Shown here: piece after piece, positions 360 to 62,270 of the stretch
Position numbering within the stretch: the stretch's first letter is position 1
Layout of the letters: each line of letters begins with the position of its first letter
NCBI GenBank assembly: GCA_964035575.1
Contig: OZ037845.1
Span: 496,001 to 560,000, forward strand
Direction of reading: 5' to 3'
DNA: 64,000 bases
Source of the DNA: Rhynchopus sp. YZ270_cl-10
Lineage: Eukaryota
Position numbers and translations under genes: made by a program
The notes under the pieces: model-generated
What the model saw: the letters and a program-made list of their open reading frames with translations, nothing else
Told to the model about the DNA's origin: nothing
Database searches by the model: none

Positions 360-477
360 ATTTACACCCCCGCATACCTTCTGTCACGACGCTCCAGCCC
401 TGCGTAGCTTGGGATCGGGGACGACGAGCCGTAACGTTGCTGTGATTATTGAATGATACACAAAAAAGTAGAGTAGA

Positions 478-630
478 AAATACAAAAGCCCTCTCGTGAA
501 CAGTGTACCGTGGTACAATGACCGGGTGTACCGGGTGGACATCCAATCATGCAGTCCTACAATACATTTCGTTTACATCTGATATGTTCCACTCCCGCTT
601 CCACTCATCGGCCAGATCGGGGATCATTGC
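478..630 (-). repeat. Dispersed repeat with a degenerate hammerhead-like core (copy 1)
   Basis: Aligns by eye with 60756-60871, 39425-39527 and 9219-9281. Core reads CCGATGA instead of CTGATGA and stem II is shortened. Confidence 0.7.
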
Positions 631-739
631 GAATGCAGGCAAAAAAAAAAACGAAAATCTAAAAAGAACCGCCTCTCCTTTCTCTGTTATCCATCCATCA
701 TGAAAATCTTGAAAATCTTAACCCTCTCCACAAATAATA

Positions 740-6727: not shown

Positions 6728-9700
6728 CTACTTCCGCCAGGACATCACATGTTCCCCTCCGTTCCTAGCCTCGTATCTTCCACCCTGATCCCCTCTACGA
6801 GGTGCACGAGCACTGTCACCCCGGCCTTTCCCCCACGCCCGACCACCTGCTCTGTCGACGCTTCGCACTGCATCACTGTCCGGCTGTGCAGGCTGTACCT
6901 CGATGATGTCTTTGTCCCATGCCCGCACACCTGCGTCATAGAAGGACAACTCACTGTGGTCGCGCTTCGGTACGTCAACGGACACAGTCTCGAGCGTCTG
7001 GTAGTCTGACACACACATTGCGACACGTGTGTTGCGGGAGTGCGTGAGGTAGCGCTGCATGTGCTCCAGCCCCTCACGCACGTCTGCAACGTGCGCAAGG
7101 GAGTCGGACACCCCGGTCACACGTGGCACCAGCAGGATCTGCAGACACTGCGCACGGCTGAACGCGACATTCATGGTCGGCAGCGGTGCGTAATAACGAG
7201 CGCGCTTGCCGTCGAGGGACATGCCTGTGTTCACAATGACAACGTCTGCAGACTGGCCCTGCAGACGTGCAGGTGTCCCTACAGCAAGGTGTGGGTTGCC
7301 CTCGCAGTGCGCATACATTTGCTCCGACGGCGAGCCAGCGCTGTAAAGGATGATCACAGAGACTGTGTCGCCTGTGTGTACAACAAAGTTGTTCTGCACA
7401 ACAGCCGCAAGCGCCACACACATCGCTTCGGAGAAGACGAAGTACGCCGACGCATTCATCTCCTCAGGCGTGTCGATCTCAAAGGACATCAGCCCGCCCA
7501 CCTTCCCTTCGGTCCCCAGCTGGGCGGCAGTCACCTCCTTTGCAACGACCTCCTCGTAGTGGGAGGAGTCTGCAGCAAACGGCATGGGGCTCTCGTCGTC
7601 TGCGCACGTTGCTGTGAAGGGTGTGCGGAGAGAGACAGTGGGTGTGTCCTTTGCCCGCAGCCACCTGTCAAAGTACGCCGGGTTCTGGGGGGTTGTGGTG
7701 GTGTCTGCTTCGTACACCGCACGACTCAGGTCGGCGATGTCGTGGTGTGACCGCAAGCAGTGTGTCAACTTTGTGATGAACGTTGTGTTGAGCGCCTCCT
7801 TGCACTCATACTTGTCTGTGAGGGATATGTTGCTGCTGGGCGACGCCTGTTTGCGCAGAAGGCAAAGCAACACCGAGTCGTGCACTGGATGGCTGAAGTG
7901 CGTTGTTATGTTCTCCCCAAGGAGGATTCGGTCGTCGTTCGCCGGCTGCATCTGCAGAGGGTCCCCTGTCACAACAAAACGGCCCCTAGGATGCAGACGC
8001 GCAAGCACACCAGGCAGGTCTCTGCACCACATCTGCGACCCTTCGTCGACCACACCCATCTCAAAGAGCGCAGGTTGCTTAATTGCTGGAGCTGCTTTGG
8101 CGTTGTGTACCTTTTGCGACATATGCTTTTTCGGCAGGTACGACGCACGAAGGTCCTGATTATTCACACCATAGACTACAAATTTTGGGCACTCCTGTTC
8201 AAACGGGACGGTAGTAAGGTCGGTGTTGCTGTACAACCTGTAGCCCTCCGACTCCGCCACACAGACGACAACGTGTGGGTGGTAGACGCGTTTCGCGATC
8301 TCGGCCAGAAGGAGGTGGATGGGTTTCCACCCTTTTGCGGTGACAAAGACTTTGAACGTGTCCTGCCCCGCACGTGCACGCTCCGACACTATCGTGGCGA
8401 CTGCTGTGGAGAGCGCAATCGTTTTCCCTGTCCCCGGCGGGCCACACACAACGCTTATCGTCTTCTCGATTGCGCACCGCACAACCTTCAGCTGCTGAGG
8501 GAAGAGGTACGGGCGGAGTTCGCCCTCCACGCTCTCGTAGTTGACAGCCCCCACAGGCGTGCCCATCTTACGGTTGTGTTCCTCGGGGCTCTTCAGGATC
8601 GACGCCACCCTGTCCACACCACCCTCCGCATAACCGTCCCCTTCACCCTTCAGCAGCAACTGTGCATTGTCGTATTGTGATTTGTCGGAATACCGCTTGC
8701 GCAGTGTGAAGACGGTGCCTTTCTGGATCCATAGTGTGTGTGTGTGTGTGAGCGCACGTAGAGCTCCACGTCCGTCCCTATGACCTTCAACTTCACTGCA
8801 TCCTTCACAGAAGACCTAAACGAGACCAGGGCAGTGTTCTTGAGGTCCTGCCAGCACTGGTTCTCAAGAACAAGGAAAAGGAATTGGAAGTCGTTGAAGC
8901 TCCCCACGGTCGACCCGGACTGGCCTTCTATCACGCACTGTTCGGCATGTTTGATGGATCGCAGGTGGAAGTCGTTCACAACTACAGAAGCCGTGCCGGT
9001 ACGGACCCCCTCACTATCCTCAATGTCATCTACAACTAGTGTGACCACTTCACTGTGAAGAGCCTTGCGCAAGTCCCGCATGAGACCCTTCTGCAACACG
9101 AACCTCAAGTCTGCAATAAAGTGAGAATGGTAAAACATCTAAAATAACCTCGGGTTTTGGTCTCCCCATATTGTAGGGTATTCCCATTGAAAGATGCGCC
9201 ACGCGACCCGTAATCAGACATCCATTTTGTGATGTGCCCTCCACCTGCTTCCATCATCAGTCAGATGGACAGGGATCATTAGACACAGGTGGCTGTCATG
9301 TAGGGCTGGGGTAAAAAAACATCTCATACCACACACGACATGTTCCGTATGGCACAACTGAACGTAGGGGAAGCGTCGTGCCTGCCCCAACGCCACGATA
9401 GTACCTGGCGTACCACACCCATCACCCACGGCTCCTCGAAGCCACTTGCCCGACAGGAGCTTGGCACCTGCGATTGCTGTGCGTTGGTGAAGCTTTGTGC
9501 GGGCATCCTTCTCTAGAAAGTACGCATCACGTGGTTCAATTGCACAGCCGAAGTATGCGAACCATGATTTGTAATCGATGTGGGCGGTTTGCGGTGAGAA
9601 ATATGCATCGGACAAAAGGTTCTCCAGGTCGACGATCGCGGCTGTCGTTCGTGCCATCTCGCCGCTTTGCGTTGTGCAGTACTTAATCACATCTTTGATT

Positions 9701-11274: not shown

Positions 11275-12142
11275 TTGTAACTGTGTGGTTTCTGGTTGTT
11301 TAATATCAGGTATTCTTTGGGGGAGTGTGTGTGTGTGGCAGAACGTATCTGATTGTAGACACAGAGCTTCACCTTGGGCACAGTGGTGCTCGTACAGTAC
11401 CAGCTGCATGGCATTGCACAACGGAGCTGTCGGGGGTAATGGTATTTCCTTAGAAGGGGAAAGTAGGAGAATGATTGCTGGCTTTGTGCAGGAACTATGG
11501 TGCGTTACTTTATGGTCATGCAGCTGGGCTGTCCGAGACTCTAGTCAAATGTGCATAATGTTTCATCAGTCAAGAAATAAAGTGTGGTGTGTGATTGTTT
11601 GCGTTGTGTCAGCGGCCGGGTGAGGTTGGAATGTATCTGCCACGTGCAATAAAAAAAAGGGGGGAGGAAGGGGGGACTGAGGTTTGCTTGTTTTGCACAT
11701 CACTTTGTTCCGTGGGGAAAAGTGTGGAGAAACAATGTCGTTCGTAACTCTTGGTATCTTCCGCTTCCCCTTTCTGATGTCAAACACATCATAAGGGGGA
11801 AGGCAAAAGCCGCACCAAAAGGTAGAAGAAAAACCCAAAAAAGCAAAAGAAGTAAGCTGGCGAAGAGAAGATGTGTTTTGGAAACACGGTAAAAAAAAAG
11901 GAAAGCAAAGTTGTGAACGGTAACGTGCAGACGCCTCGTGGACGCACACACAACAAGAAAACCCAAGGTGTGGAGATCAAAGCTAGCTCAATGTCTCCAC
12001 AATAACAGGGCGAGCAGGAAGTGGACGACACATTGTACATCCCTTCCTTCCTTCCCGATCCTGTCCAAAAAATATGAAAGTCGAAGTGAAGGTGAAAGTC
12101 GCAGACATCACCAAAAGGCCCAAAGACACAAAGCAAAACAGC

Positions 12143-26365: not shown

Positions 26366-27200
26366 TCAGTTCCGACGACGGCGGCCGATTTGTGCACTGA
26401 AACCTCCAGTGATGGACTGCACAGTACGGGACGCGTTGCACTGGTTGCATGCAAGCGTTGTCAGTCTCGTGTGGGGATCCTTCACGAGGTTAGTATCCAC
26501 TGCTTTGCACATGCCGCAGGTCACGTATGCCTCAATGTACTTACGCAGAAGACCCTCAATGTGCTTTGGTGTCAGACGACCCTTCAGAATCAGGTTCTGC
26601 TGTCCGTCGATGTTTCCAGTGGTTCCCAACTCAGTCAGGATGAAGCTGAACATATGTTCCTGAGGACGGCCCAGGGACTTGCAGATTTCTGCAAAGTTGG
26701 TAAAGGCAACCTTCTTGGTTCCGTCACGCTGCACTGTCGGAGGACGGATCTTCGTCTTCTGGTTCACTCCCAGCGAGGGGTTGTTCGACTTGATTCTGTC
26801 CATGACAAGGTGGAGGATCTCGGGGTAGGTGTACTCACGGTCGGTTCCTTGGAATGCCTCCCAGTTCACCTCACCCTCAACCTTGGTCTCCTCCACCGAA
26901 CGCTTCTTCTTCGGTTTGCACAGTTTCAAACTCGCGTAGAATTCCTCAAGTGTTTCGTAGTCAGAGTCCTCGTTGGTTCCTCGTTGTGCCGGCTCGGGTG
27001 ACTTGGTCGCACGCTGTTGTGATGTGGTGTGACGGTGTGACGTGATGATGCGGTGATAATGCCGAACATACCTCCTGGGTCTGTGCACGCGTCGTCTCCT
27101 GGTCGCTTCCCTCATCGTCACTGTCGACTTTGCGCTTGACTGTCTTCTTCTTCTTCTTCTTCTTCTTGCTCAATTCCAATTCTTCGTCGGTGCTGCTCAT
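26366..27200 (-). CDS. EIF2S2: eIF2 subunit beta, tandem copy (identical protein); exons 27200-27072 and 27013-26366
   Basis: 2348-bp offset duplicate with synonymous differences only; stop TGA versus TAA; unrelated 3' flank. Confidence 0.93.
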
Positions 27201-30802: not shown

Positions 30803-30837
<35 letters not shown>

Positions 30838-31242
30838 ATGGTTGAACCACGAGAGTACCATGGGGAACTGGGTTGCTGACCGCACCATCCAGGCTGTACC
30901 TCAATTTTTTTTGCCTGCGGCGCCATTTTTCCTTTTTTGCTCCGCAAAAAATGATTCGATGTGTGACTCTGTGCTGTAAAAAGCTAGATTTTTACACTGT
31001 ACCCTAAATTTTTTTTTCGCCTGCGGCGCCATTTGTTTGATTTTTTTTTTGCTTCGCAAAAAAAAATACAGTTCCCTATGTTCCCAATGTCCCTGGTCAG
31101 CAGTGCTGAAAAATTTTTGGGCACAAAAATAGCTGACCCCCCTATTTTGAAATCTGAATCCCTGGATAAGACACTGGCGCAGGGTGGAAAAAAACCCCGC
31201 AACAGAACTCAAAAAAAATCTGAAAACGTAGCGGAGGGGCTG
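30745..31242. mobile_element. hAT-like MITE (~498 bp)
   Basis: TIRs CAGnnnCTCCGCTAC, sub-terminal gttctgttgcgg inverted repeat, flanking duplication GAATATA. Confidence 0.7.
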
Positions 31243-34200
31243 GAATATATAAAAAAAAAAAAAAAAAATTGACTTGAAATACGCCCTCTCGTGGCAGTGT
31301 ACCAAAAAATAATATAGCACCGCAGCAAAATCCGAGGGTTGAGAGCACTGCAGTGTGAAGCTTTTGCAGGGCAGAGGTGTAGTGCGGTCAAAGACAACAA
31401 AAAAAGGGGGAAAGCTGAAAGTGCAAGCGTCCCACCGTACATCGGCAGACGCAATGACGAACCAATACAAGCATTTGAATAGAATAAAACGAAGGAACTA
31501 CTAAAAATTATGCTTAGTACTCAGTGCTCTTGATGCTCCTTGTAAATAACGCAAAAAAATAGCGCAGAAGGGAAGGGGGGGAAAGGAAAGGAAAAAATAA
31601 AAGAAAAAGACAAGACAACGACAGATGTCCCTCCCACTGCCCCACGCACACCCAATGCTTAGTGATTGTCAAGGCAAGAGCAGAGGGAAAACACATCTCT
31701 CTCTCTCTCTGAACCGACAGTGGGGCCTCACCCTCTCTTAGGGATTTACATGGACGTCCTTACAGGTGGTACACCATGACCCTTCATAGCATGGGGAGAA
31801 GCTCTGGCCTGACATTTATATACCCTGGCCAAGGGTTTAACATGCATTTAGTGGGTGCAGGGACGTGTACCTCCCTGAGGACAAAAAAAAAAACAGAAGA
31901 GTCTCGCATACCTCAAACGAGAGGAAATACAGACAGCCCACTTCATCCCCGTGAAGTGTGGGCAAGACATGGCGTGGCACTTCCTCCAGAAACCCTGTGA
32001 AGGTCGTGGCCTGAGGGGGGGGTGCTGGGGATGGTTAACCGATGGGACAAGGTGGCCACACACTGTGCGGAGTCACACACCCAATCCCTAATGATTGATC
32101 TTCCCAGTACGCATGTTTGAGTTAAAAAAAAAAAATATGTGAGATGAACCTAAGCCTCTCGTGCTTAGTCAACCTACCTAAAGAGAAAAAACAATATTGT
32201 AACATGAACTTTCAGTACTCCAAATATGTTAGCATCCAAAAAAAAGGCAAAAAAAAATCAAACTATTTGGTGTTCGTGATCCCCTTTGCTATTTCGTAGC
32301 ACGCGTGTAGCATTTGTGGTAAATTCACGAATACCAAATATGCCAAACTTACTTGGACACTTCCTGGAGTACGTAGGTGTAAGCATATCGCCTAACGAAA
32401 GTGAAGAAAAGGTTTATAAGATGAGTCTACACCTCTGTGCTTGGTCACCTAAAATAAAGAACACATTTTCCACAAATATACATTCATTATCGCAAAATAA
32501 AATACAGGCAGTGCGATGATGGCGAACAATGATTCCCTCGTGTGACGCTAGATAAAATTTGTCAACCAAAACAAAACAAGAGAAGAACCTTGGTGCGTCT
32601 GGCGAGTAGGCACACTGTTATTCGGTTGTCACATTTTGTGGACAAAAAGCTTCAGCACAAAAAATGGTTTCAAAGTCACACAACAAAATACTAAGATGAT
32701 CAGTAACCAACGAATGCTGCCTGAGTAAAAAAAAAAAGAGATGATGAGTGCAGAACATCGAGCGCAAAGACTGAATAAAAAAAAAAAGAGAAAAAATGGT
32801 TGTTCGAAAGTGAAAAAAATGGGGCAAAGTTTTGTTGAAGAAAGAAGAAGAAGAAAAAGAAGAAAAACTAAACGAACGGACAGTATCGAAAGAGGGGCAA
32901 AAAAAAAAGAGAAAAAAAGAAAGTACCAAACGCCTCTTGCCGGACAACCGACGGACGCAGGCAGGGAGAGAAATAAAAATGTGTCTCACAGGACACCTCC
33001 AAATAGGGAAAATGGTTTGCTGCAGGAACTACACAACTGCTTTTTTTTATCACAAACCCAAAAAGAAAGGAACAAAAGCCTCGGAAGACGACTTTACACA
33101 ACTTTGAACAAAACACACACAAGAACGTTGCAAAACAACCTCTGCGAACATCAGGTACCAAAAAAAATAAATACCTTAGACATCTACGGACGCAGGCACT
33201 GAAAGAAAAGTGAAGTTGATACTACAATACGCCTTTTGGGACGGGCACTGACAAAAGAAAAAGAAATACGAATGCTGCTGAAAATCCTTTTGGAAAACCT
33301 CTCATGTACATGCAGCACATATTACGAGAGTATCCACATGAAATCACGCACCAAGTGATGAAACATCATAGAAGCAGGGGGGCATATGCGGCCGCCCTGT
33401 CTATAAAATAACAGACGCAACGTGTGCGTCTCCTTTCCTATTTACTGTGCAACACATTGATTATATTCAGATACCTTCTTTCCAGAGTAAAGAACGGTGA
33501 AATTGAAAGGTGAAAATAAAAACTGCCCAAAAAAACAACAACTGAACCACATAAGGGCCAGCTGCCTCCTGGTACAATTACCTCAAATTTTCTGAACATC
33601 AAATGCACAAAGCAAAGTGGGAGAGGGAGAAAGATCTTGTAGAGGGGGACCCCAAAAGGGGGCATGCTTTTACATCTCTGCAAAAGAGGGGGGCTTTTAA
33701 AGTGCCGAAAAAAAAGGTACGTTTTTTTGTTTCGAAGGGCCAAGGGGGCTTATAGACAAAACGTACACCAAAAAAAAAAGTATTAAAAAAGATGAGCTGA
33801 CCTCCTGGGCACACACTGCATCGTTTTCCAGAAATCGTTATAAAGAAAATATCGTTAGAATATCACATGGATATGATCCTCTAGCTCCTGTTGGATAAGG
33901 CATTTGGCACGCATTACAAGACAGGTTCCCCGCAAAGCTACATAACCCGTACAGAGTTAGTGCCCTGTGCAGAACGGCTCAGCCCATAGGGCACGTCAGA
34001 TGCAAAATGGAACAGCAAGAAAGAGAAAAACACTGTACTAAGTAAGGCGTCTGCGGCAACAGACCTGAGTGACATCTTCGACCTTATCGGGTCCCAGAGG
34101 GGGGTAGATCGAAGCAACCCAGCCGTGTCCCACTCCACTTCGACAGGAAGCCTCTTGACAGAGAGACCATGCAAGAAGTCTATAACACGATGGCGATGGC

Positions 34201-37937: not shown

Positions 37938-38811
37938 CAGAGCTCGCGCTAAAGTCCATCCCTCATCCCGGGATTTTTGGGGGTTTTGGTAGGAACGTTT
38001 TTTTTTTTGCAGTACGGGGATTTCATTAAGAAACCAGAAGTTCTAATATTGTTGAGTAAGACCACCACATAGTGGACTTGCATATACATGTGACCCCGCC
38101 GTGGAACGCAATTGGCTCGGAAAGTCAAAAGAAAGAGGAGAAAAAAGAAAAGGAAAAAAAAAAAAAGTTGGTTACCGTGCGCCTGCGGCGCTGCCTGTTC
38201 CCTTCCAGTTTCTACAGGCAAACACTTGCCCCCTTTACCTTACACTGACGGGTTTTGACCAAAACCAAAAACTTGTCCATTTCGGCAAATTGACCCCACC
38301 ACAGAACGGACGAATTCCGGAAATGCAAATGCCGGTGTTTTCGCGCATTTTCATGTTGCAAGACGTCAGGATCAGGGAGAGAAAATCTGGTTGTGGGATT
38401 TACATTGGCCCTCTTTACCCACATGGATTTTGACCAAAACCAAAAAATTGGCCATTTCGGCAAAGTGACCCCACCACAGCGCGGACGGATTCCGGAAATT
38501 CCAATCGCGGTATGTTTTGGGGCTGAAAACCCACTGATTTTCAGGAGAAAAATTGCTTCCAAATCTCGGAATTTTCCGAATTTTCCTGAAAATGACCCTT
38601 GTTTACGAGTATGGGTTCATATTTTGCGAAAATTTAAGTCACTAAAATTTTGTCCATTTTTCCGTATATACCCCACCACAAGCCGGGATTGGCCCGGAAA
38701 TGCCACAAAACGGGGTTTCCGGGCCTCCCCAGCTAACCTTTTCAAGGAACGTTTTTCCGTACCCGAAATCCATTTTTTCCCCATTTTTTCCCATAATTAG
38801 CGCGACCACTG
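37938..38811. mobile_element. Non-autonomous hAT-like element (874 bp) with internal ~175-bp subrepeats
   Basis: TIR CAG(A/T)G(C/G)TCGCGCTAA; exact 8-bp TSD CGTCAGAT (37930-37937, 38812-38819); three ccccaccaca...ccggaaat units. Confidence 0.88.
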
Positions 38812-39344: not shown

Positions 39345-39424
39345 GGTGTATCTTGTGTAGCTAAGCTTGATCACATTCGTTATTGCGCAGAAGTAAAGTG
39401 TATAGGCCGCTTAAATCAAAGTTG

Positions 39425-39527
39425 ACTTGAAATACAAAGCCCTCTCGTGAACAGTGTTACCTTGGTACAATGACTAGCTGTACCGGGGGGGTGGACACCC
39501 AACCATTTCGTGGTTTACATCATGATA
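39425..39527 (-). repeat. 5'-truncated copy of the hammerhead-like repeat, ending in a C-GAGA-G hairpin
   Basis: TATCATGATGTAAACCACGAAATGG...GGTACAGCTAGTCATTGTACC...GTTCACGAGAGGGC matches 478-585. Confidence 0.7.
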
Positions 39528-40036
39528 CCCTCATAGTAAAAATAATGTTTTTTCAAAAATAAATTAATAAAAAAATGACCCAAAAGTAACATTTTTTTTG
39601 TAACAATTTAATAAAATGTTTTATTCGTTTTTTTGCAGTTGGGCAAAAAGTAACAAATGTTACAAAGAAAAAATAAAAAGCCCATGGTTGAAGCACGGGA
39701 GTACCATAGGGAACTGGGTTGCTGACCACACCATCCAGGCTGTACCTCAATTTTTTTTTTTGCCTGCGGCGCCATTTTCCCTTTTTGCTCCGCAAAAAAG
39801 GGTTCGTTGAGTGACTCTGTGTAAAAAGCTATATTTTTACACCATGGGTGTCCGCGCTGTATGCTTTATTAGCCCCCCCAGTAACATTTTTGTTACGCCT
39901 GCGGCGTAACAAAAATGTTACAAAAAAATAAAATCCAAACAATGAAAAAAGTAACAAAATGCAAAAATGTTATAAAAAAAATAAAAATCGCCGAAATAAT
40001 TTATTTGTAACAATAACATAATTTATACTATGAGGG
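39528..40036. mobile_element. Tc1/mariner-like MITE (509 bp)
   Basis: TIR CCCTCATAGTA(A/T)AAAT(A/T)ATGTT flanked by TA on both sides; internal perfect 19-bp-stem hairpin at 39881-39921. Confidence 0.8.
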
Positions 40037-40863: not shown

Positions 40864-41008
40864 AGAGGAACGTGCCTCTCGTGCACACATCAAAAAAGAA
40901 AAAGAAAAGTTTATAAGATGATCCTAAGCCTCTCTGTGCTTAGTCACCTTATCATATTCGAAAGAAAGTGGCGTTGATCGTGCAAACGCCTCTTGGGACG
41001 GCAGGCAC
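40864..41008 (-). repeat. Cluster of three dispersed hairpin motifs (types A, B, C)
   Basis: TGTGC-ACGAGAG-GCAC; AAGGTGA-CTAAGC-ACAGAGAG-GCTTAG-GA-TCATCTT; GTGC-CTG-CCGTCC..GGCG-TTT-GCAC. Each recurs many times in the window. Confidence 0.75.
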
Positions 41009-49423: not shown

Positions 49424-50963
49424 TCAGACTCTGTCGGGGTAGAACTGAGCGTAGTTGGCGGACATAGCTGTCTCGTACGAAGCGAGACGTGCCGATGTGC
49501 TGCCACCACCCACCTGGGAGTAGTTGAGTGGTGTGGGTGCAGGTGGTGCCATGGAAACGCTCTGCAGAGGTGACGCGTTGCCGGTGGCGGCGTGTGAAGC
49601 ACGTGGCGGGCTGGCACGAGTGGTGCGGCCAGTGAAGCTCTGGAAGTCCTGACGCAGCTTCATCTCCTTGGACTCAAGGCTGTCGCGCTGCTCCCTCAAA
49701 CGCACCTCCTGCTCAAGCAGCGGTTTCTCCTCATCATCCACCTGCCTGCGGCGTGCGTTGAAGTCAACGTTCTCCTGTTCCAGCTGCTGCACAGTGCGTT
49801 CCTGCCCGTCCACAGCCTGTCCTGCGTTCACCTCCTCTGCCTTGCGCTGTGCCTCACGCTCCTTCGCAGCAAGCAGGTCACGCTGGTCCTGGTCGCGCTG
49901 TGCCAGCTGGCGTGCCACCTCGTTCGCAGCGTCACGCAGGGCTGCGGCAGCCGCACGCTCACGCTCCTGGCGTGCAGCCACCTCCGCCTCCGCGTCCGCA
50001 GCACGGTCGCCAGCAACGTGCACCTCACGACGTGCCTCGTTCTCCGCAAGCACCGCATCCTGCTCGCGTGTCTGTGCCTGCGACAGCTCCCCACGGCAGC
50101 GCTCTGCTGCCGTGCGCTGCATCTCCACCTCGCGGTGCTGCTCTGCAAGCACACGCTCAATCTCACGCAGACGCTCCTCCGCCTTCGCCACCTCCTGCTC
50201 CTGCGCCTGCAGCCTGCGTGCTGCCACCTCCACAGCACGCTGTGCCTCCGCAAGCTCAATCTGACGCTGCCTTTCCCTGTCCTTCGCACGGTTCAGCTCA
50301 GCCATGCGCTCACGCAGCTCCTGACGGGCACGCTCTGTTTCGTCGTGTGCAGACTCAAGTGCGCTCTGTTGGTGGTGTGGTGTGGTTAAAGTGTTCTTGA
50401 AGTGGAACAGTGATGAAGGTGAACACAAACAACAAAACACACCTTTGCCTGTGCCTCACGTGCCTGCACATCTGCCACAATCTGCAGCTGTGTCTGCAGC
50501 TTGTGGTCTGCAGCATCAGTCTCCTGCTGAGCCTGTGCATACGCAGCACGTGCAGCTGCCTCGCGACTGCGCAGCTCGTCCAGCAGACGCTTGGCCTCCT
50601 CAATCGCCTCCTTCTGCGCAATCTCCGTCCAGAAGTCCTTCGCACGGTAGTACACACAGTCAATCAGCGTGGGGTACATCTCCCCAAAGCGCTGGAACTC
50701 CGCCAGCGACACAACACGGTCCTGGTTCGAGTCCGCCTTCTCAAACAGGTCCTGCACGGTTGCTGAGGTGAACCCGACATTCAGCCTTCTGAAGCCAGAC
50801 GAGAACGCCTCCGTGTCCAGCGAGCGTGTCTTCCTTGTGTCAAAGTCCTCAAACAGACGTCTCACCTGTTGTGTGCGAAGAACATGGGCCAGCACGCTTC
50901 ACTCTTGTCACATACCTTCTCGTCGTGGTTCGCGTGGTCGGGGAATGCTGCGGCGGCTGTCAT
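49424..50963 (-). CDS. EF-hand + long coiled-coil protein (~470 aa); exons 50963-50916, 50865-50443, 50365-49424
   Basis: GT-AG introns of 50 and 77 nt give a continuous frame. EF loop DSNQDRVVSLAE; Ala/Glu/Arg coiled coil. Confidence 0.85.
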
Positions 50964-52931
50964 TGTTGTGGTGGTGGCTTGTCTTGGGTGTCTGTCAGGT
51001 GGTGTGTTCAAATCACTTTTTTGGTAGCTGCGAAGTGCGCAAGCCACTGGGGGTTATTTGAGTAATGTATGAAGCGTAGCACGGCACATCAAACTTGTGG
51101 GGACAAAAAAGACTTCTATACTGACAGAACGTGGGGAGCGAACCAGTCGGTTCAGCAAAAGGCATTGATTTTTTCCTATTTTTTCCTTACACACAAAGGA
51201 ACAGCAACACCTGCAACAGTACCACCGGGCGGTCACGCCTCAGGGCCAGCTCTACCCATATCCCCTTACACCTTGTATAAAAAGACTCCCAACCCATCGT
51301 TCTTTTAGCTGTTTATTGCACCAGAGAGGACACTATCAGAATATATTTGCATTGTGATGGCAAACACAGATAGAAGCTCAGGCGGAACAAGGGTCCCGAT
51401 CTCACTCATAAGGCAATGAATGAACTTCAGTGAATAATAAAAAAAAAGCAAATAAAGGTTGGAACTAATCCAGATCAAGGCAGGTGTGCTCTGTTGAGAG
51501 TCACCACAAAAGAAAAGTACTAAAGTTGAATGAAAGAGAAAAAAAGAGTTGAAAAGTGGAAAAAACGATGAATGGGCCTGTCGGGTCACATCATCTATTT
51601 CCAGATTTTTTTTTAAAGAGAAAGGAGCAGTTGGCAGTTGACATACCAAACCTTAGGCTTACACCTACTTCGACTTGGAGAAAGAGATTTTGAAGAATAA
51701 AAAATTCTACTGTTGCAGGTTTAATAGGGAGAAGAGACTTGAAAGAAAGAAGGCAGGGAAAACACATCACAAAAAAAGGTTTACAAGATGACCCTCTCAT
51801 GCTTGGTCACCTTGATCACATTCAAAGGAGGGGTGTAAGTTGGACAGAACAGGTTGGTTAAGATGACCCTGGCCTTTCGCGATTAGCCGCGTTCTAAAGA
51901 GACGTTAACAACTTACCAAATCTGTCTTTCAATGAGAAAAAGTTCATAATATGAACCTAAGCTTCTCGTGAGTAGTCACCTCACAAAAAAAAGTTGCAAT
52001 TTGTTACAGCACACTGAGATTTATTTTCCTCTTGAAGCAGATCTCCTTTTTTTCGGGGGGAAAGCACATTTGAGGCGAAAGACCCTTTAAAAAAAGCTGA
52101 ACACAAAAAGCTTGTCAATAACAAAACAAAAATGAAGAAAAAGACGCCTCTGCAGAGACAGGAGACGGGCAATACAAGAAAATTGAAAGATGAACATGTC
52201 TCTTACACATATGAATGCATGCACATCTGAAAAGAAAGAAAGAACAGTTTATAAGATGGCCCTAAGCCTCTCGTGCTTAGTCACCTTTGGGGAAATAAAA
52301 CTGGAATGTGTCTCTGCAGCTCATCTCTCAATAGAAAACTGTGAGATCAACGCAAGCCTCACATTGCTTAGTTACTTTGGGGGGAGAAATACCCTATAAA
52401 AAAAAGCACACACTGCGGTATGAAGTGAAAGCCGAAAAAGTGCAAAATAATGAATCGGGTGGTCAGGCCTGCATCCATCTTGAGGGCTGTCAGGAGGGTT
52501 ACTTTAAAAAAGAAATGTTAACTTTCTCAGTGCACACTACGCACTCAACACAAACTAAAAAAAGCAAAAGAAAATGACACGGAAGTGCCTTTTCTTTTTT
52601 GAACATCTTTCATCATCACACTACTCCCCTTCCCCTCCTCCCCCTCCTCCCCTCTGAGACACCCAACTCTCCTGCCCTACTCTTAACGGCTTTGCATGGA
52701 GTCGGCCCTCCTTAGTGCTTGCCCCATGAAGATGTTTGGTTGCACCTGTTGGGTGTGGGTGTGGGTGTGGTTTGATAACAGATTTAAAATGGGTAACGCC
52801 TGAACGGAGTACAGCCCACTTGGTGTGGGTGTGGATTCTCTTTCGAACTATGTTTACTCAAAAAAAAACCAGAAAAATTGCATAAAAGACCTGCACCTTC
52901 ATATTTTTAGACACCACCACAACACATTAAG

Positions 52932-56208: not shown

Positions 56209-57793
56209 TCAGTAGTATGTGGACTTGGCAACACCGACGGGGCTTGTGTGGCGGGCAACAGCAGGGCTGTCGTACTGAACGGGGTACAGAGAGGGCTCCC
56301 TTGCCTGGGCCAGGCTGTCGTAAACAGAGGCGCGTGCTGCTGCGCCAGCAGCAGCAGTGTATGAAGCAGTAGTGACAGGTGCCACGGGCAGTGCAGCTGG
56401 CTGTGCTGCAGTGATGCGTGGAGGGCTCGGGGCACGTGTCTGGCGGCCAGTGAAGCATTGGAAGTCCTGACGCAGCTTCATCTCCTTGGACTCAAGGCTG
56501 TCGCGCTGCTCCCTCAAACGCACCTCCTGCTCAAGCAGCGGTTTCTCCTCATCATCCACCTGCCTGCGGCGTGCGTTGAAGTCAATGTTCTCCTGTTCCA
56601 GCTGCTGCACAGTGCGCTCCTGCCCGTCCACAGCCTGTCCTGCATTCACCTCCTCTGCCTTGCGCTGTGCCTCACGCTCCTTCGCAGCAAGCAGGTCACG
56701 CTGGTCCTGGTCGCGCTGTGCCAGCTGGCGTGCCACCTCGTTCGCAGCGTCACGCAGGGCTGCTGCAGCCGCACGCTCACGCTCCTGGCGTGCAGCCACC
56801 TCCGCCTCCGCGTCCGCAGCACGGTCGCCAGCAACGTGCACCTCACGACGTGCCTCGTTCTCCGCAAGCACCGCATCCTGCTCGCGTGTCTGTGCCTGCG
56901 ACAGCTCCCCACGGCAGCGCTCTGCTGCCGTGCGCTGCATCTCCACCTCGCGGTGCTGCTCTGCAAGCACACGCTCAATCTCACGCAGACGCTCCTCCGC
57001 CTTCGCCACCTCCTGCTCCTGCGCCTGCAGCCTGCGTGCTGCCACCTCTACAGCACGCTGTGCCTCCGCAAGCTCAATCTGACGCTGCCTTTCCCTGTCC
57101 TTCGCACGGTTCAGCTCAGCCATGCGCTCACGCAGCTCCTGGCGGGCACGCTCTGTTTCGTCGTGTGCAGACTCAAGTGCGCTCTGTTGGTGGTGTGGTG
57201 TGGTTAAAGTGTTCTTGAAGTGGAACAGTGATGAAGGTGAACACAAACAACAAAACACACCTTTGCCTGTGCCTCACGTGCCTGCACATCTGCCACAATC
57301 TGCAGCTGTGTCTGCAGCTTGTGGTCTGCAGCATCAGTCTCCTGCTGAGCCTGTGCATACGCAGCACGTGCAGCTGCCTCGCGACTGCGCAGCTCGTCCA
57401 GCAGACGCTTGGCCTCCTCAATCGCCTCCTTCTGCGCAATCTCCGTCCAGAAGTCCTTCGCACGGTAGTACACACAGTCAATCAGCGTGGGGTACATCTC
57501 CCCAAAGCGCTGGAACTCCGCCAGCGACACAACACGGTCCTGGTTCGAGTCCGCCTTCTCAAACAGGTCCTGCACGGTTGCTGAGGTGAACCCGACATTC
57601 AGCCTTCTGAAGCCAGACGAGAACGCCTCCGTGTCCAGCGAGCGTGTCTTCCTTGCGTCAAAGTCCTCAAACAGACGTCTCACCTGTTGTGTGCGGTGAA
57701 CATGGGCCAGCACGGTTCACTCTTGTCACATACCTTCTCGTCGTGGTTCGCGTGGTCGTTCCAGACTGCCTTGGCTGCGACTGCGACTGCCAT
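56209..57793 (-). CDS. EF-hand + coiled-coil protein paralog (~485 aa); exons 57793-57734, 57683-57261, 57183-56209
   Basis: 6818-bp offset duplicate of 49424-50963 with the same introns and different N- and C-termini. Confidence 0.85.
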
Positions 57794-58719
57794 TGTTGCT
57801 TTGTGTGCTGTGTCAAACAGATTGCTGTGCGATGTGGAGGTACACTACTAAGAACACGTTGACAAAGGTTGAAATAAGAACGACATCGGAGCAGCCAAAC
57901 CACCTCACAGCACACCTTCCCTTCCCTTGAGGACGAGGGTCTACATCCACACCCCTTACCCCCAAAAAACCAACGGGTACAGATACAAAAGACTCAAACC
58001 TCTTTATTTGTTGGTATTGTACACCGACAGGACACATGGCGACAACGTTTTCTTTTTCTTTTTTGCCCCCCATTTGCCCTCTTCACAGAGTCTGCTTAGA
58101 GGGAAAACGGGGGTACGAAGTTAAAATAAACAAAAGACAAACTGAGGAATATCGACAGCCTGCTTCAACGAAACGGCTGCAGATGCTACAAAAAAATTTT
58201 TTGGAAAAAAGCTTTGAAAGATGGGGCTCCCTTCCCTTTAGACTTTTGTTTCAAAATAAATGCGATTTTTTTTTCTTTTGCACCTCTCGGATACAAAGCA
58301 GGAAACAACCGAACTAAGAGCGAAGCAAACCGCTCAGACGGCATAGTCGTAAGACAAAAAAAAAGGGATAACCCTCACACAGGCGACAATAAATAGAGGG
58401 GAAAAAAAATGAAAAAAACGGTGCGATATATGCCTCAAGGGACGGCAGGTAGGCTTAGTGGGCTATCGAGAGAAAAAAAGGTGTGTTATGAACGATATCT
58501 TCCTCTTAGGGTGTACGCACCTTCAATAATATGATTAAGACAAAGGAACGAAAGTTGGAATGACGAAACCTAAGCCTCGCAGTGCGTAGTCACCTTAAGG
58601 AAAAAGAAGCATTGGGTTAAGGTATTTACCCGAAAAAGAGGAGAATTTTGTTAAAGAGTTATACAACAAAGTAATGCGGGGAAAAAAAGAAGAGGGAAAA
58701 AAAAGAAAGAAAAGTTTGT

Positions 58720-58754
58720 AAGATGATCCTAAGCCTCTCGTGCTTAGTCACCTT
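58720..58754 (-). repeat. Consensus-like copy of hairpin type B
   Basis: AAGGTGA CTAAGC ACGAGAG GCTTAG GA TCATCTT. Confidence 0.8.
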
Positions 58755-59397
58755 ATCATAATCGTTATCGCACAGCATCAAAGAAAACGTTTAGAAGATG
58801 AACCTTTGAAAAAAAAATTTATGTTGGTACAGACAAGAAGTAGTCGGCAATACAACTTAGTTTTAAAAAAAGAAACGCTAATGGATGTGTTTCTCGCGCA
58901 ACAAAGAAAATTTGAAGAGATGCGAAGCTTCGATACACAATCTTTTAAGAAAGAGAAAATAACGCAGTTTTTTTAATTTCTTTTACATCTCCAAGAATGC
59001 AAACTATGGTCAATACTGACCTTTTCATAACTCCCCTCCCCTTTTTCCAAGGGAACAATCTAAAGAGTCACACTTTTTTTTTTTTGTGCCGACAATCACT
59101 TTACAACCTAGGTAAAGAATCTGCACTCAATACCAGCCAATGCACAGCATGATTTTTGTAGTCAGTTTGAGTAAGACTGATTTTTTGGGCCAGGCCGAAG
59201 ATCGGACACTTCTCGTACTCCCGCATGCGAGAGGGGTACGAGATGAGTCAGTCTAACTCAGACTGACTACAAACCATGGTACAGAGCATTTTAATTATTT
59301 TTCCCCCTTCTCTTCCCCTCTTCTTCCAACTACACCTCGACCCTCAAGCCGTTCGTGAAGATTGGAAAATACGGCAAATCTCCTTCCATTCCCCACA

Positions 59398-60504
59398 TTA
59401 TGCAACACAATGCGGACATCTTGGCCCAACTGAGGATATTACGGTAAGACAGAGGGCAGCAGTGATCAGAATATCGGGACGCCTTTTGCCTTTATTGCCA
59501 AGGATGTGTTCGACCACTTTAGAGGCTACTCCACGAAAGAGCGCGTTAACGTCCTTTACATTGCCTGTGTAGCTGGCGATACGGCGTACAGACTCCACTG
59601 CGACAGCTTGGGGAAGCGAGATCAGCCAGTCATATGTAGCCGGACGCAATGCATCCAATCGTGGTAACGGTTCTGTCCCTACTGCCTGCAACAACACTTC
59701 AACAAGGTATCCAGGAACCGGCTCGACCGCTCCGCAAGCACTTTCTGCATCGACCGCATCAATGGCCTCGCGTACCACTTCCTCCAATGTTTCTGCACAT
59801 TGCAGTGCTATCGCTGCCCTTGCGATGACTGCCCTCTGAAAGGCCTCAGGACGCCTCAACAGCAGCCCTATCACTTCGTTGTTCACAACCTCTGCCAGCC
59901 CCGACGCTTTAAGAATCCGTTGCGTTTGAAACGGAAGCAGCAACAACGGTGTTGTCTCAGGGAGCTCTGCGGTGAAAGTCGTTGGAGTTGCGAGCCACGG
60001 AGAATCCGCGGTGGCTGCTGTAGAAAAGCCGTGATAAAGCTTCGCAACATTGGAGACAGGTGGTGGTGCTGCACAAAGACGTTGTAGACATTCGCATGCT
60101 AAGGGCGGACTTTGTTTGACACATTCCTTCACCAAACGAACACCATGTCTTTCCCAAGCTGCGTCGCTTAAGGTATGCTTCGTGTACACCAACCACGCCA
60201 CCACCGCATCCGTCAACGGCTGCACACGAAGCACAGCAACGCCACTACCTTCATCATGCACACCCTCACACCCCCGCACCTCCCCTTCAAGGAACCGTAC
60301 CTGCTCCCGATGAGGGAGCTGCACCACCACCCCAACCAAACCAGGGTTAAGGTGGCTCACCCGAGCGTACTCCGCAGCCTCGTTGCAAAGAAGCGACCAA
60401 CCGTCCAATCGAGGCTGCAAATGAGGGTCGTATGTTGTGTGGTGGTGGGGGAGATGGTGTCGAGAGTGATGGTGCGCACGCCCCTCAGGGGCGAGGCTCT
60501 CCAT
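59398..60504 (-). CDS. Hypothetical protein (368 aa)
   Basis: Long ATG ORF on the cluster strand; no motif recognised. Confidence 0.65.
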   Translation of the reverse strand: MESLAPEGRAHHHSRHHLPHHHTTYDPHLQPRLDGWSLLCNEAAEYARVSHLNPGLVGVVVQLPHREQVRFLEGEVRGCEGVHDEGSGVAVLRVQPLTDAVVAWLVYTKHTLSDAAWERHGVRLVKECVKQSPPLACECLQRLCAAPPPVSNVAKLYHGFSTAATADSPWLATPTTFTAELPETTPLLLLPFQTQRILKASGLAEVVNNEVIGLLLRRPEAFQRAVIARAAIALQCAETLEEVVREAIDAVDAESACGAVEPVPGYLVEVLLQAVGTEPLPRLDALRPATYDWLISLPQAVAVESVRRIASYTGNVKDVNALFRGVASKVVEHILGNKGKRRPDILITAALCLTVISSVGPRCPHCVA

Positions 60505-60799
60505 TAAGAAAAAGAGAGAATTTTTGTGTAAGGGACGGGGAATGGAGGGAAGAGGGAGGGGAGTAAGTTGTCTGTGAAGAAAGGGGGGCGAATGGGGTGA
60601 ATGGGGTGTGGTTAATTAAACCACAGTATGTCGCTTCATCACAGCGGTGGCGAGTGGCATGTGACTTCTGCCCAGTGCCCTGAGAATTGGTTTGCGCTCT
60701 TTGCAGACTAAGGGTAGAAAAGGGCTGGTTTGAATCCTCCCTTGGAGGAATTGCATGACCGGCTGTACCGGGGGATACCCAACCATGCAGTACGACATC

Positions 60800-60856
60800 C
60801 ATTTCGTGGTTTACATCTGATATGTGCTACTCCCGCTTCCACTCATCAGCCAGATG
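60800..60856 (-). ncRNA. Putative hammerhead ribozyme with non-standard (pseudoknotted) strand order, inside a dispersed repeat (60756-60871)
   Basis: CATCTGG-CTGATGA-GTGG-14nt-CAT-A-TCAGATG-TAAA-CCAC-GAAA-TG: intact core, 7-bp stem I, 4-bp stem II, 3-bp stem III. Confidence 0.55.
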
Positions 60857-61523
60857 AACGGGGATCATTGCAAAAACAGGGACGCGAATCCTGTGTGATG
60901 TGGGTCTGGTTGGGGGAAAAATGGGGGTGAGGGTGGATACCTTTTTTATTCCTGGTCTGCCCTCCTGGGCTGTGTGTGTGTGTTTTTTTTTTGTGTTTTG
61001 TTTTTGCAAGGTTTTCTGGGTTTCGTTCACAATTCCCCCAACCCCCTCCCACAATACTCCTACACAGGATTCTTTTTTCTCTCCTACACATCCCATCACG
61101 ACTCATGTCGTAGATGAAGTCCACCATGCTGTCCGTTGTGTCTTTGTACTGCTCGTAGACACCAGGCATGCTGAAGACCTCCATCGACTTTGCGTTGTCG
61201 TCAATCCACCACCATCTGTCCCCGGCAAAGTCTTCTTCTGTTTCACGGGCGGCCTTTTCTTTTCCTATCTTTGCAACAAGTCTGTCATTGATGAAGTTCA
61301 CACCGGGAAGTGTTCTGTTGAAGTCGACGTGTACGCCGGGCTTGGCGACGGTCGTTGGGACAGGGAAACCATCTATGTCCTGCATTCGTAGCTGCTCGTA
61401 GTATCTCTTGTACGGGCCCTGCAACGACTGAAACAAGAGCGACAGCGTCAGAAGAAACACCGCCACTCCGATAATTTTCCTGATGCTCACATGCTTCGCT
61501 GTGCGGGACACTCCTTTCCTCAT
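60846..61523 (-). CDS. Type II membrane protein; 3' end uncertain (probably spliced)
   Basis: MRKG..basic N-terminus + IIGVAVFLLTLSLLF anchor. The distal ORF runs through intron-like CA-rich sequence. Confidence 0.55.
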   Translation of the reverse strand: MRKGVSRTAKHVSIRKIIGVAVFLLTLSLLFQSLQGPYKRYYEQLRMQDIDGFPVPTTVAKPGVHVDFNRTLPGVNFINDRLVAKIGKEKAARETEEDFAGDRWWWIDDNAKSMEVFSMPGVYEQYKDTTDSMVDFIYDMSRDGMCRREKRILCRSIVGGGWGNCERNPENLAKTKHKKKTHTHSPGGQTRNKKGIHPHPHFSPNQTHITQDSRPCFCNDPRSSG

Positions 61524-61717
61524 GGTTTGGGTCACTTAGCCGAAATGGCCAAGTTCTTGGTTTTGGGCAAACCCCGCCCAAGCCCCCAACCCCAACCCCA
61601 AAAAAGGGATCTTTGAAATCCGGGTGAAATCGGGTGAAATTGGGCTCAGGTGGGCACAAGGTGGGGCTCTGGGGGGGCTATTGTGGGCTGGTCGCGGGAC
61701 ACCACATCATATTCTGT

Positions 61718-61792
61718 GAAAATTCGCTGAAATTTTATTCATTTTTTCGTGTCCCCACCACAAGCCGGGATTGGCTCGGAAATGCAATAAAA
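61718..61792. repeat. Fragment of the hAT-like family internal subrepeat
   Basis: ccccaccacaagccgggattggctcggaaatgc matches 217-250 and 38671-38703. Confidence 0.65.
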
Positions 61793-62270
61793 CTACCTAT
61801 TGGGCGGAAAAAAACAACAGGAAACTTGCGCACTTTTTTTTGCCTTTCTTTTTCGAAAAATTTCAAACGCCCCAGAGTTAGGGTCGGGCCGAGTCGGCCG
61901 ACTTTCTGATTTTCCGAACAGTCGTCCCGACTATAAATATTTTTTCGTTATATTTTCCCTTCCGTCTGACTGTTCTTCCCGCTTCCGCTTCCCTGATTCC
62001 ATCCCCTTTGTCCTTTATGGTACTCGTCCCCTGTTTTTCTTTCTTCTTCAGCTTTTTCTTTTTCTCTTTTTCTTCCTCGTCTTCATCCGCCTTTTTTGCA
62101 GTACTACGGTAAGTGCAGTCATCTACTGACACATTTCCAAAAGAATGGGCGTTACTTTCTTTTTCATGAAGATAAGCGAAAACCCTGCTTGCCAGGTACA
62201 TAAACACTGAATGCAGCTTGTCCAGCATCACCTCACATTTTGCAAGACGGCTGGTTAGGCAGTTGGTCAT

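What the first reader, a model, noticed from the sequence alone, without database searches (positions are those of the whole stretch)
60756..60871. Hammerhead ribozyme core in a strand order that is not type I, II or III
Seen (minus strand): CATCTGG(60856-50) CTGATGA(60849-43) GTGG(60842-39) AAGCGGGAGTAGCA CAT(60824-22) A(60821) TCAGATG(60820-14) TAAA CCAC(60809-06) GAAA(60805-02) TG. Established: the hammerhead core is CUGANGA + GAAA + NUH with G10.1-C11.1, and the three known types are circular permutations of strands A(I'-II), B(II'-III), C(III'-I). Here all core bases are intact, stem II is GTGG/CCAC, stem I is TCAGATG/CATCTGG (7 bp) and stem III is CAU/AUG. But the substrate strand sits inside what would be loop II, giving order A-C-B. 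Inference: this is a pseudoknotted or dimeric hammerhead cleaving AUA/U between 60821 and 60820, with a 4-nt linker tying the tips of stems I and II, which are neighbours in the active fold. Other copies carry pairing-compatible changes: CATCTGA in the 9.2 kb copy, an extra A-U in stem III at 564-587, and CCCG/CGGG to CCTG/CAGG. Descriptor searches for types I-III would miss this order. Caveats: stem III is short, and a competing pairing CGTTCAT/ATGGATG exists that would leave only 3 nt for stem I.
Basis: partly seen in the sequence, partly recalled or inferred. Interest (0 to 1): 0.88.

Follow-up and report, generated by a model that had tools for sequence, protein, structure and literature searches.

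The report
Scrambled hammerhead ribozyme in diplonemid repeat
A very common repeat in this marine protist's genome carries a predicted self-cutting RNA wired in a rare scrambled order, which we found in print only for two soil sequences, and many copies begin right at the predicted cut, so the cut likely happens in living cells and likely sets where new copies start.

Summary
The motif is real: all hammerhead core bases and stems I, II and III lie at the stated coordinates. A match this good arose in 5 of 18,908 shuffled windows. The strand order is not new. It is 'type CSG' of Eckert et al. 2023, known from two soil-metagenome sequences that cleave in vitro.

The new part is the setting. The ribozyme sits in a roughly 230-nt, high-copy dispersed repeat of a diplonemid. 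In three of four runs, the strongest listed upstream junction with unrelated DNA falls at 60820, the first base after the predicted cut (45, 36 and 4 contigs). Three of five window copies share one 3' end and differ at their 5' ends.

Best reading: a non-autonomous retroelement whose RNA is partly cleaved, so reverse transcription often runs off at the cut. The machinery may be Penelope-like, but no partner gene was found. Weak points: stem III has 3 bp, covariation is not significant, and cleavage and expression are untested. The scan earlier noted other rearranged hammerheads in Penelope-like elements on other DNA.

The parts
60857..60862 (-). 5' strand of the fourth helix (stem I-II interaction helix, here P0), CCCGUU, directly 5' of stem I
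   Evidence: 6 bp with 60832-60837, stacking -12.1 kcal/mol, the strongest helix in the 81-nt region; same place as the helix in published CSG-1/2
60850..60856 (-). Stem I, 5' strand (2.7 to 2.1), CAUCUGG
   Evidence: 7 bp with 60814-60820; G2.1 is A in 11-23% of depth in four runs, turning G-U into A-U
60843..60849 (-). Core CUGAUGA (C3-A9)
   Evidence: listed changes at U4, A6 and G8 are 0.5% or less in the two deep runs
60839..60842 (-). Stem II, 5' strand with G10.1, GUGG
   Evidence: 4 bp with 60806-60809; U10.2 to A in 3-6% of depth in three runs would break a pair
60832..60837 (-). 3' strand of the fourth helix, AGCGGG, one base after stem II
   Evidence: one compensatory pair in the 9.2-kb copy
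60825..60831 (-). Unpaired 7-nt linker from the fourth helix to stem III
   Evidence: holds two of the three most variable positions of the motif (60825: 8-17%; 60826: 11-27%)
60814..60824 (-). Substrate block: stem III strand CAU (60824-22), A17 (60821), predicted cut between 60821 and 60820, stem I 3' strand UCAGAUG
   Evidence: contig junctions with unrelated DNA at 60820 in runs X1 (45), X4 (36, plus 21 at 60822) and X7 (4)
60810..60813 (-). 4-nt linker UAAA joining the tip of stem I to the tip of stem II
   Evidence: the matching linker in CSG-1/2 is also 4 nt
60800..60809 (-). G block: stem II 3' strand CCAC with C11.1, GAAA (G12-A15.1), stem III strand UG
   Evidence: G12 to A in 2.5-3.7% of depth in three runs, at a CpG
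60755..60919 (-). This copy of the dispersed repeat. The 5' limit is uncertain (about 60880-60920), and it lacks the last ~55 nt of the family's 3' tail
   Evidence: profile search; depth profile
456..640 (-). Second copy, from about 60 nt upstream of the cut to the shared 3' end; core U4 changed to C and stem II 3' strand partly deleted (predicted dead)
9210..9319 (-). Third copy; G10.1 lost, 11-13 nt lost after or around the cut, G12 changed to A; ends about 27 nt past the cut (predicted dead)
39412..39525 (-). Fourth copy; begins within about 3 nt of the cut and runs to the shared 3' end. A later TA-flanked insertion blurs the exact first base
31262..31303 (-). Fifth copy; only the last ~42 nt, followed by a T run
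   Evidence: E 4e-9

Best explanation
The motif is a type-CSG (non-circularly permuted) hammerhead inside a high-copy dispersed repeat of about 230 nt in a diplonemid genome; it is predicted to cut its own RNA after AUA (60821/60820), and the repeat likely spreads by reverse transcription with a borrowed enzyme, so that copies made from cut RNA begin at the cut. Shown: the core, four helices, block order, copy structure and junction cluster. Inferred steps: (1) The repeat is transcribed with its host region; all 5 window copies lie on the gene-coding strand. (2) The RNA folds into a four-helix pseudoknot. The fourth helix and the 4-nt linker clamp stems I and II together, in place of the usual loop-loop contact. 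(3) Cleavage is slow or partial, because stem III is short and a 9-bp hairpin can hide the core. (4) Reverse transcription starts at a U-rich end about 120 nt downstream of the cut, at T-rich sites. On cut RNA it runs off at U60820 and leaves a ribozyme-less copy of about 120 nt. On uncut RNA it reads through the ribozyme and stops at variable points upstream. (5) The enzyme is most plausibly Penelope-like (about 0.45), since those elements keep a hammerhead just upstream of an internal priming site. My odds: a selected CSG hammerhead family 0.9; this copy cleaves in vitro 0.7; cleavage explains the junctions 0.7.
For: Only the CSG order matches; 5 of 18,908 shuffles match as well. A fourth helix, not asked for in the descriptor, sits where CSG-1/2 have it: directly 5' of stem I, pairing 0-1 nt after stem II. 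The stem I to II linker is 4 nt in both. The four CSG helices stack to -34.2 kcal/mol against -16.4 for the rival plus stem II (loop penalties not included). The three motif sites with the most frequent changes in the two deep runs (60850, 60825, 60826) are all tolerated by the fold; rough P 0.011. Junctions at 60820: 45 contigs in X1, 36 in X4 (plus 21 at 60822) and 4 in X7. Their loose parts are long (median 255, 255 and 115 nt), unlike the family, and A-rich on the + strand. No junction of the opposite kind (copies ending at 60821) is among the listed rows. The window holds one such copy (39525). Stops caused by structure alone would be expected at the 3' edges of helices (60800, 60806, 60814), not at 60820 (inference). 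Three of 5 copies share a 3' end, with 5' ends at about 42 nt, at the cut, and about 60 nt above the cut. In the anole Penelope-like element, priming starts 85-92 nt downstream of the hammerhead cut and targets are AT-rich (PMC11167929; subtraction mine).
Against: Stem III has only 3 bp (5 in CSG-1/2), and the motif fails the published CSG search pattern. The best nested fold (-19.0 kcal/mol, z -0.47) is not the ribozyme, and the ribozyme helices have nested pair probabilities of 0.04 or less (pseudoknots not modelled). Covariation among window copies is not significant (167 of 500). U10.2 to A (3-6%) and G12 to A (2.5-3.7%) would damage the fold. Only 24 of 420 loose-end rows were shown, so the background rate of junctions is unknown, and X6 does not list 60820. 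The depth drop across the cut (36, 26, 13 and 46%) is the largest step in three runs but not in X6, and depth also falls by 17-43% just downstream. T-rich targets could supply U60820 by microhomology. Two of 5 window copies, including this one, lack the shared 3' end. No reverse transcriptase was found in the 9 ORFs scanned. X1 may be the window's own source, and the runs share variants, so they are not independent lineages.
Confidence: 0.7

Rival explanations
1. The ribozyme is real, but the unit is a retrozyme-like tandem or circular RNA. Cleavage makes unit-length monomers, and an intact ribozyme is re-formed at each monomer junction, so the sequence above the cut is the monomer's own 3' end.
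For: It explains how progeny keep a ribozyme that is cut in the middle. Five single-contig 'goes back' joints show two pieces of the repeat head to tail, two of them restarting near the cut (60818, 60825). Animal non-LTR retrozymes are described as tandem hammerhead units derived from Penelope-like elements (bioRxiv 10.64898/2026.07.22.740005).
Against: All 5 window copies are solitary. The 3' tail shows no clear similarity to the leader above the ribozyme. No copies ending at 60821 are among the listed loose ends.
Confidence: 0.15
2. The repeat is transcribed from the + strand and ends at 60820 with a poly(A) tail. The hammerhead on the other strand is either a passenger or works on antisense RNA.
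For: The loose ends beyond 60820 are A-rich on the + strand. Two window copies end at different points on the low-coordinate side, as 5'-truncated + strand copies would.
Against: Agreement with the A-rich consensus is only 0.43-0.57, which is not a clean tail. The 31.3-kb piece holds only what would be the 5' end. A four-helix ribozyme would straddle the element's end by chance, with its cut on the exact boundary. No tRNA-like head was found.
Confidence: 0.07
3. The RNA mostly folds another way: upstream CGUUCAU pairs with the G-block strand (a type III-like order with no stem I), or the 9-bp hairpin covers the core. The motif is then an inactive relic, and the junction cluster reflects AT microhomology.
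For: Rival helix -8.8 and hairpin -12.0 kcal/mol stacking; the nested minimum-energy fold lacks the ribozyme. ATAT at 60823-60820 is an AT-rich patch next to T-rich targets.
Against: The rival leaves no stem I, so it cannot be what selected an intact core. The 0.6-kb copy lacks the UUC it needs. A paralogous locus seen through protein P0051 appears to lack about 4 nt there too while matching the window's reading frame exactly over 60855-60814 (inferred from amino acids). Other T positions upstream are not among the listed junctions in the deep runs.
Confidence: 0.08

Closest known systems
Type-CSG hammerhead ribozymes CSG-1 and CSG-2 (Eckert, Friedrich, Weinberg, Weinberg 2023, PMC10085705)
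   Same: Block order C-S-G; full core with G10.1-C11.1; fourth helix between the strand just 5' of stem I and the strand just after stem II; 4-nt linker from stem I to stem II; about 63-66 nt.
   Different: Published: two similar unique sequences from soil metagenome DNA, host and role unknown, helices 8/6/6/5 bp (fourth, I, II, III), GUC site, 2-nt link to stem III, rates 0.004 and 0.026 per min. Here: a high-copy repeat in a eukaryote assembly, helices 6/7/4/3 bp, AUA site, 7-nt link. No sequence likeness beyond the core by eye, and it falls outside their search pattern.
Penelope-like elements and their non-autonomous derivatives (pLTR hammerheads; PAc, PMC11167929; Craig et al. 2021, PMC8557442)
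   Same: Hammerhead close to the 3' end of insertions, with a tail of about 90-120 nt beyond the cut; heavy 5' truncation; AT/T-rich targets; occasional partial tandems.
   Different: Their described hammerheads are type I. No RT or GIY-YIG gene is linked here. For PAc no RNA-seq reads began or ended at the cut, whereas here many genomic copies begin there. I found no report of these elements in diplonemids.
Animal non-LTR retrozymes (Li, Clavereau, Pollet 2026, bioRxiv 10.64898/2026.07.22.740005)
   Same: Short, non-coding, hammerhead-bearing repeats spread by borrowed machinery.
   Different: Those are tandem arrays with type I hammerheads. The copies here are solitary, of type CSG, and many lack the 5' half of the ribozyme.
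Pr77 HDV-like ribozymes of trypanosomatid L1Tc/ingi/SIDER elements (PMC4035085, abstract)
   Same: A self-cleaving RNA in a euglenozoan retroposon that can free element RNA from co-transcripts and define a 5' end.
   Different: A different ribozyme class. An HDV-like ribozyme lies wholly downstream of its cut and is inherited whole (recalled), whereas this one loses its 5' half on cutting.

Membership tests
Type-CSG hammerhead | Block order C-S-G | tested here: met
   only order that matches; naming
Type-CSG hammerhead | All conserved core bases (CUGAnGA, G10.1-C11.1, GAAA, UH) | tested here: met
Type-CSG hammerhead | Stems I and II pair | tested here: met
   7 and 4 bp
Type-CSG hammerhead | Stem III pairs | tested here: inconclusive
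   3 bp only, stacking -3.2 kcal/mol; 5 bp in the published pair
Type-CSG hammerhead | Helix bringing stems I and II together, and a short I-to-II linker | tested here: met
   6-bp helix and 4-nt linker, as in Suppl. Fig. 10
Type-CSG hammerhead | Limits of the authors' search pattern (stem III at least 4 bp, link at most 10 nt). This is a search setting, not a family definition | tested here: not met
   2 bp beyond U16.1 and a 14-nt link, against the pattern text
Type-CSG hammerhead | Covariation in the stems | tested here: inconclusive
   1 compensatory pair, 167 of 500 shuffles; G-U to A-U switch at 11-23%
Type-CSG hammerhead | Site-specific self-cleavage, lost on G5 change | not testable with these tools
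   indirect only: junctions at the predicted site
Type I, II or III hammerhead | Circularly permuted order CGS, GSC or SCG with three stems | tested here: not met
   no hit in the window; no Rfam match
Penelope-like element (autonomous) | ORF with reverse transcriptase and usually GIY-YIG endonuclease | tested here: not met
   none in 9 ORFs near the copies; the rest of the genome is not held
Non-autonomous Penelope-like derivative | Hammerhead near the 3' end with a tail, 5' truncation, AT-rich targets | tested here: met
   3 of 5 copies share a 3' end about 120 nt past the cut; 4 of 8 flanks measured are 50-73% T
Non-autonomous Penelope-like derivative | 3' end shared with an autonomous partner; partial tandems (pLTR) | tested here: inconclusive
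   no partner available; five single-contig head-to-tail joints
Non-LTR retrozyme | Tandem units, each with a type I hammerhead | tested here: not met
   solitary copies, type CSG
Non-LTR retrozyme | Circular RNA form | not testable with these tools
   no RNA holder on record was listed
L1Tc/ingi/SIDER retroposon | Pr77 hallmark with an HDV-like ribozyme at the 5' end | tested here: not met
   no Rfam match in the window or around the copy; the motif is a hammerhead

The most novel reading that the evidence does not exclude
This is the first non-circularly permuted hammerhead with a known host and a job. It would be the processing signal of an undescribed Penelope-like or retrozyme-like retroelement family in Euglenozoa. 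Thousands of its genomic insertions would record in-cell cleavage by starting at the scissile bond, and its intact sense-strand copies could cut the host's polycistronic pre-mRNA.
Probability: 0.4. Interest if true: 0.8.

Novelty: new variant of a known kind. Interest (0 to 1): 0.62.

Why it matters
The authors who defined type CSG called the evidence for its biological relevance weaker, because it rested on two similar sequences of unknown host. A high-copy family in an assembled eukaryote genome supplies many variants for covariation, a host and a likely role. It also shows that a 3-bp stem III and a longer link fall outside the published pattern, so more such ribozymes may be hidden in repeats. 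The role of hammerheads in Penelope-like elements is stated to be unclear, and in the one element studied in vitro cleavage was dispensable. Insertions that begin at the cut would give a direct genomic read-out of in-cell cleavage and a way to count cut against uncut templates.

Tried and rejected
Rfam finds nothing at gathering score in the window and only chance-level hits around the motif.

No whole genome is held, so copies could not be collected and aligned.

A 19-nt family pattern gave 4 metagenome hits, all unrelated in their flanks and taken as chance, and 0 viral hits. A gapped core pattern gave 0 in prokaryote genomes and 0 in viral contigs.

No RNA holder was listed. X7 is only a guessed RNA run, and contigs cannot show cleavage. 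Nine of the 17 listed runs had a small share or none of the words; of these only X7 was laid. Four of 17 runs were laid in all. The family's 3' end was not mapped with reads and rests on window copies alone.

A dimer was considered and set aside: there is no palindromic stem III cap, and published CSG RNAs cleave as cis constructs. It was not tested.

The upstream ORF (60846-61523) was considered as the element's own protein. It has no Pfam match, only two paralogues, apparently on the same contig, and only chance-level Atlas hits (best 0.82). It is treated as a duplicated host segment, not an RT.

A mitochondrial or rDNA origin was considered because of the high depth. The long laid pieces listed for X1 have about single-copy depth, which points to many nuclear loci.

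Literature: 'hammerhead + CSG + SGC' from 2023 on returns only Eckert 2023. 'hammerhead ribozyme + diplonem' returns two unrelated papers. The D. papillatum genome paper has no 'ribozyme' or 'penelope' in its main text, and none of these, 'hammerhead', 'GIY-YIG' or an 11-nt family motif in 7 supplement files. One search returned nothing; two searches listed nothing on euglenozoan hammerheads (listings only). Most subscription journals are not in the library.

Full report
OBSERVATION. I wrote a descriptor with the three hammerhead blocks: C (stem I strand, CUGANGA, stem II strand), S (stem III strand, UH, stem I strand) and G (stem II strand, GAAA, stem III strand). Run in all six orders on both strands of the 64-kb window, it gives one hit: C3 at 60849, H17 at 60821, order C-S-G, stems of 7, 4 and 2 bp beyond A15.1-U16.1. 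In 18,908 locally shuffled windows, 5 CSG hits and 27 hits of any order were as good; loose hits occurred at 0.048 per window. Rfam has no match.

THE ORDER IS KNOWN. Eckert et al. 2023 (PMC10085705) name the six orders. I read parts 1-5 of 8 of the main text, 15 of 28 supplement passages holding 'CSG', and supplement part 2 of 42. They found two similar unique CSG sequences in soil metagenome DNA. Both cleaved at the expected site (0.004 and 0.026 per min), and the authors judged the evidence for biological relevance weaker than for SGC. Their alignment shows a fourth helix between the strand directly 5' of stem I and the strand directly after stem II, and a 4-nt linker from stem I to stem II. 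The window motif has both: CCCGUU (60862-57) pairs with AGCGGG (60837-32), the strongest helix in the region at -12.1 kcal/mol stacking, and the linker is UAAA. This helix was not part of my descriptor, so it is added support. Helix lengths differ (6/7/4/3 bp here against 8/6/6/5), and the motif fails their search pattern (stem III at least 4 bp, link at most 10 nt). A search for 'hammerhead, CSG, SGC' from 2023 on returns only that paper. A 2026 paper cites it only in passing (passages).

HOST. The long ORFs are nearly all on the minus strand. The nearest named relative of a window glutathione transferase is from Rhynchopus euleeides at 56% identity. I infer a diplonemid. The Diplonema papillatum genome paper (passages; 7 supplement files searched) describes many unclassified dispersed repeats and about 3,600 scattered 28S pieces, but mentions no ribozyme or Penelope element.

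THE REPEAT. A profile of the copies finds 5 pieces in the window, all on the minus (gene-coding) strand (two-sided P 0.06): 60919-60755, 640-456, 9319-9210, 39526-39412 and 31303-31262. Three share a 3' end about 120 nt past the predicted cut, ending in Ts. Their 5' ends differ: about 42 nt long, at the cut, and about 60 nt above it. The other two, including the focal copy, lack that end. Four of 8 flanks measured are 50-73% T. The 39.5-kb copy starts within about 3 nt of the cut; a later TA-flanked insertion with inverted ends (39528-40036) blurs the first base, and the far side of that insertion carries no upstream family sequence. The 0.6-kb and 9.2-kb copies have broken cores. Protein P0051, apparently from a duplicated segment on the same contig, matches the window's frame exactly over 60855-60814, so another locus carries the core. 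It seems to lack about 4 nt in the stretch needed by the rival pairing (inferred from amino acids).

READS. Four of 17 listed runs were laid on 60500-61200, all as contigs. In X1, 1,775 contigs were laid, and summed depth peaks at about 5,000 times the single-copy flank. That is not a copy number, but the long pieces listed have about single-copy depth, so the repeat occupies very many nuclear loci. Among the 24 of 420 loose-end rows shown, the upstream junction inside the repeat is at 60820 in X1 (45 contigs), X4 (36, plus 21 at 60822) and X7 (4, with 2 each at 60849 and 60881). X6 does not list it. The loose parts are long (median 255, 255 and 115 nt), A-rich on the + strand and unlike the family. 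In X1 and X4, downstream loose ends are short (12-85 nt) and continue the family. Position 60820 is the first base of the predicted 3' product. Depth falls 36, 26, 13 and 46% between 60814 and 60823, the largest step in three runs, but it also falls 17-43% between 60805 and 60813, so depth alone is weak.

VARIATION. Forty of 47 variant rows were shown. In the two deep runs U4, A6 and G8 change in 0.5% of depth or less; G12 changes in 2.5-3.7% (a CpG) and U10.2 in 3-4%. The three commonest changes are G2.1 to A (11-13%, giving A-U) and two linker positions (8-14%), all tolerated by the fold (rough P 0.011, with tolerant sites chosen by me). X7 shows core changes at 17-31%, mostly from one or two contigs at low depth. 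Five contigs show head-to-tail pieces. The runs share variants and X1 may be the window's source, so they are not independent lineages.

FOLDING AND COVARIATION. The four CSG helices stack to -34.2 kcal/mol; the rival plus stem II gives -16.4 (no loop terms). The best nested fold is -19.0 (z -0.47) and is not the ribozyme, and a 9-bp hairpin can cover the core. Pseudoknots are not modelled, so this neither proves nor excludes the active fold; it suggests slow cleavage. On the five window copies 93.9% of cells pair, with one compensatory pair that 167 of 500 shuffles reach. Covariation is therefore not shown.

MECHANISM. Shown: core, helices, order, repeat structure and junction cluster. Inferred: the minus-strand RNA is the template; reverse transcription starts at the U-rich end about 120 nt past the cut, at T-rich sites; it runs off at U60820 on cut RNA and reads through on uncut RNA. 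This accounts for short ribozyme-less copies, variable 5' ends further up, and the absence among listed rows of copies ending at 60821. The layout resembles the anole Penelope-like element, where priming starts 111-118 nt into the ORF and the hammerhead cuts at +26, on AT-rich targets; there, cleavage was dispensable in vitro and no reads ended at the cut (PMC11167929, parts 1-2 of 4). Craig et al. 2021 (passages) describe 5' truncation, partial tandems, tails and unclear hammerhead function. No partner RT is in the 9 ORFs scanned, and the genome is not held, so the Penelope link is a resemblance only. Retrozymes (part 1 of 5) are tandem with type I hammerheads, which does not fit the solitary copies. 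Trypanosomatid Pr77 elements use an HDV-like ribozyme for a similar purpose (abstract).

EARLIER SCAN NOTES. No look-alike of this sequence is recorded. Notes on other genomes describe rearranged hammerheads in Penelope-like elements, one with copies starting near the predicted cut. They are unchecked leads, not support.

VERDICT. New, as far as my searches reach: a eukaryotic host, a high-copy retroposed setting, a reduced stem III outside the published pattern, and a genomic footprint consistent with cleavage in the cell. Cleavage, expression and the mobilising enzyme remain untested. Interest 0.62.

Noticed in passing
window 60609-60683 (+): A 75-nt piece of 28S rRNA (LSU model from position 2139; E 0.49, weak score but clear alignment; very high depth). 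It lies about 70 nt past the ribozyme copy's 3' end, antisense to it.
   Followed up: partly
window 39528-40036: A TA-flanked element of about 510 nt with terminal inverted repeats (87% over 45 nt) and a central palindrome (39881-39921); MITE-like. An inner part recurs at 30818-30997.
   Followed up: partly
window 60846-61523 (-): ORF with a membrane-anchor-like N-terminus and no Pfam match; its stop codon is the UGA of the ribozyme core. The segment from about 61300 to the ribozyme is duplicated (P0050, P0051; read depth well above single copy). It may be a first exon or a 5' transduction.
   Followed up: partly
window 132-359, 38585-38811, 61707-61793: Another dispersed repeat family, 79-83% alike, with one copy next to the 0.6-kb ribozyme copy and one about 800 nt above the focal copy.
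   Followed up: no
window 32124-32171, 40886-40960, 52222-52287, 58696-58780, 23065-23114: A further short dispersed repeat family of 50-70 nt.
   Followed up: no
window 6728-8815 and 9214-11544 (-): Adjacent long ORFs: a superfamily-1 helicase-like protein (weak AAA_30/AAA_11/AAA_12 hits) and an upstream ORF with no Pfam hit. The 9.2-kb ribozyme copy overlaps the end of the second.
   Followed up: no
window 15861-17621 (-): A cysteine-rich, probably secreted protein made of 49-residue tandem repeats (147-nt period).
   Followed up: no
window 12143-12787, 18866-19510, 20212-20856; 24018-24767, 26366-27115; 49424-50305, 56209-57123 (-): Local gene duplicates: three glutathione transferases, two eIF2-beta-like genes (label from recall) and two coiled-coil genes.
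   Followed up: no
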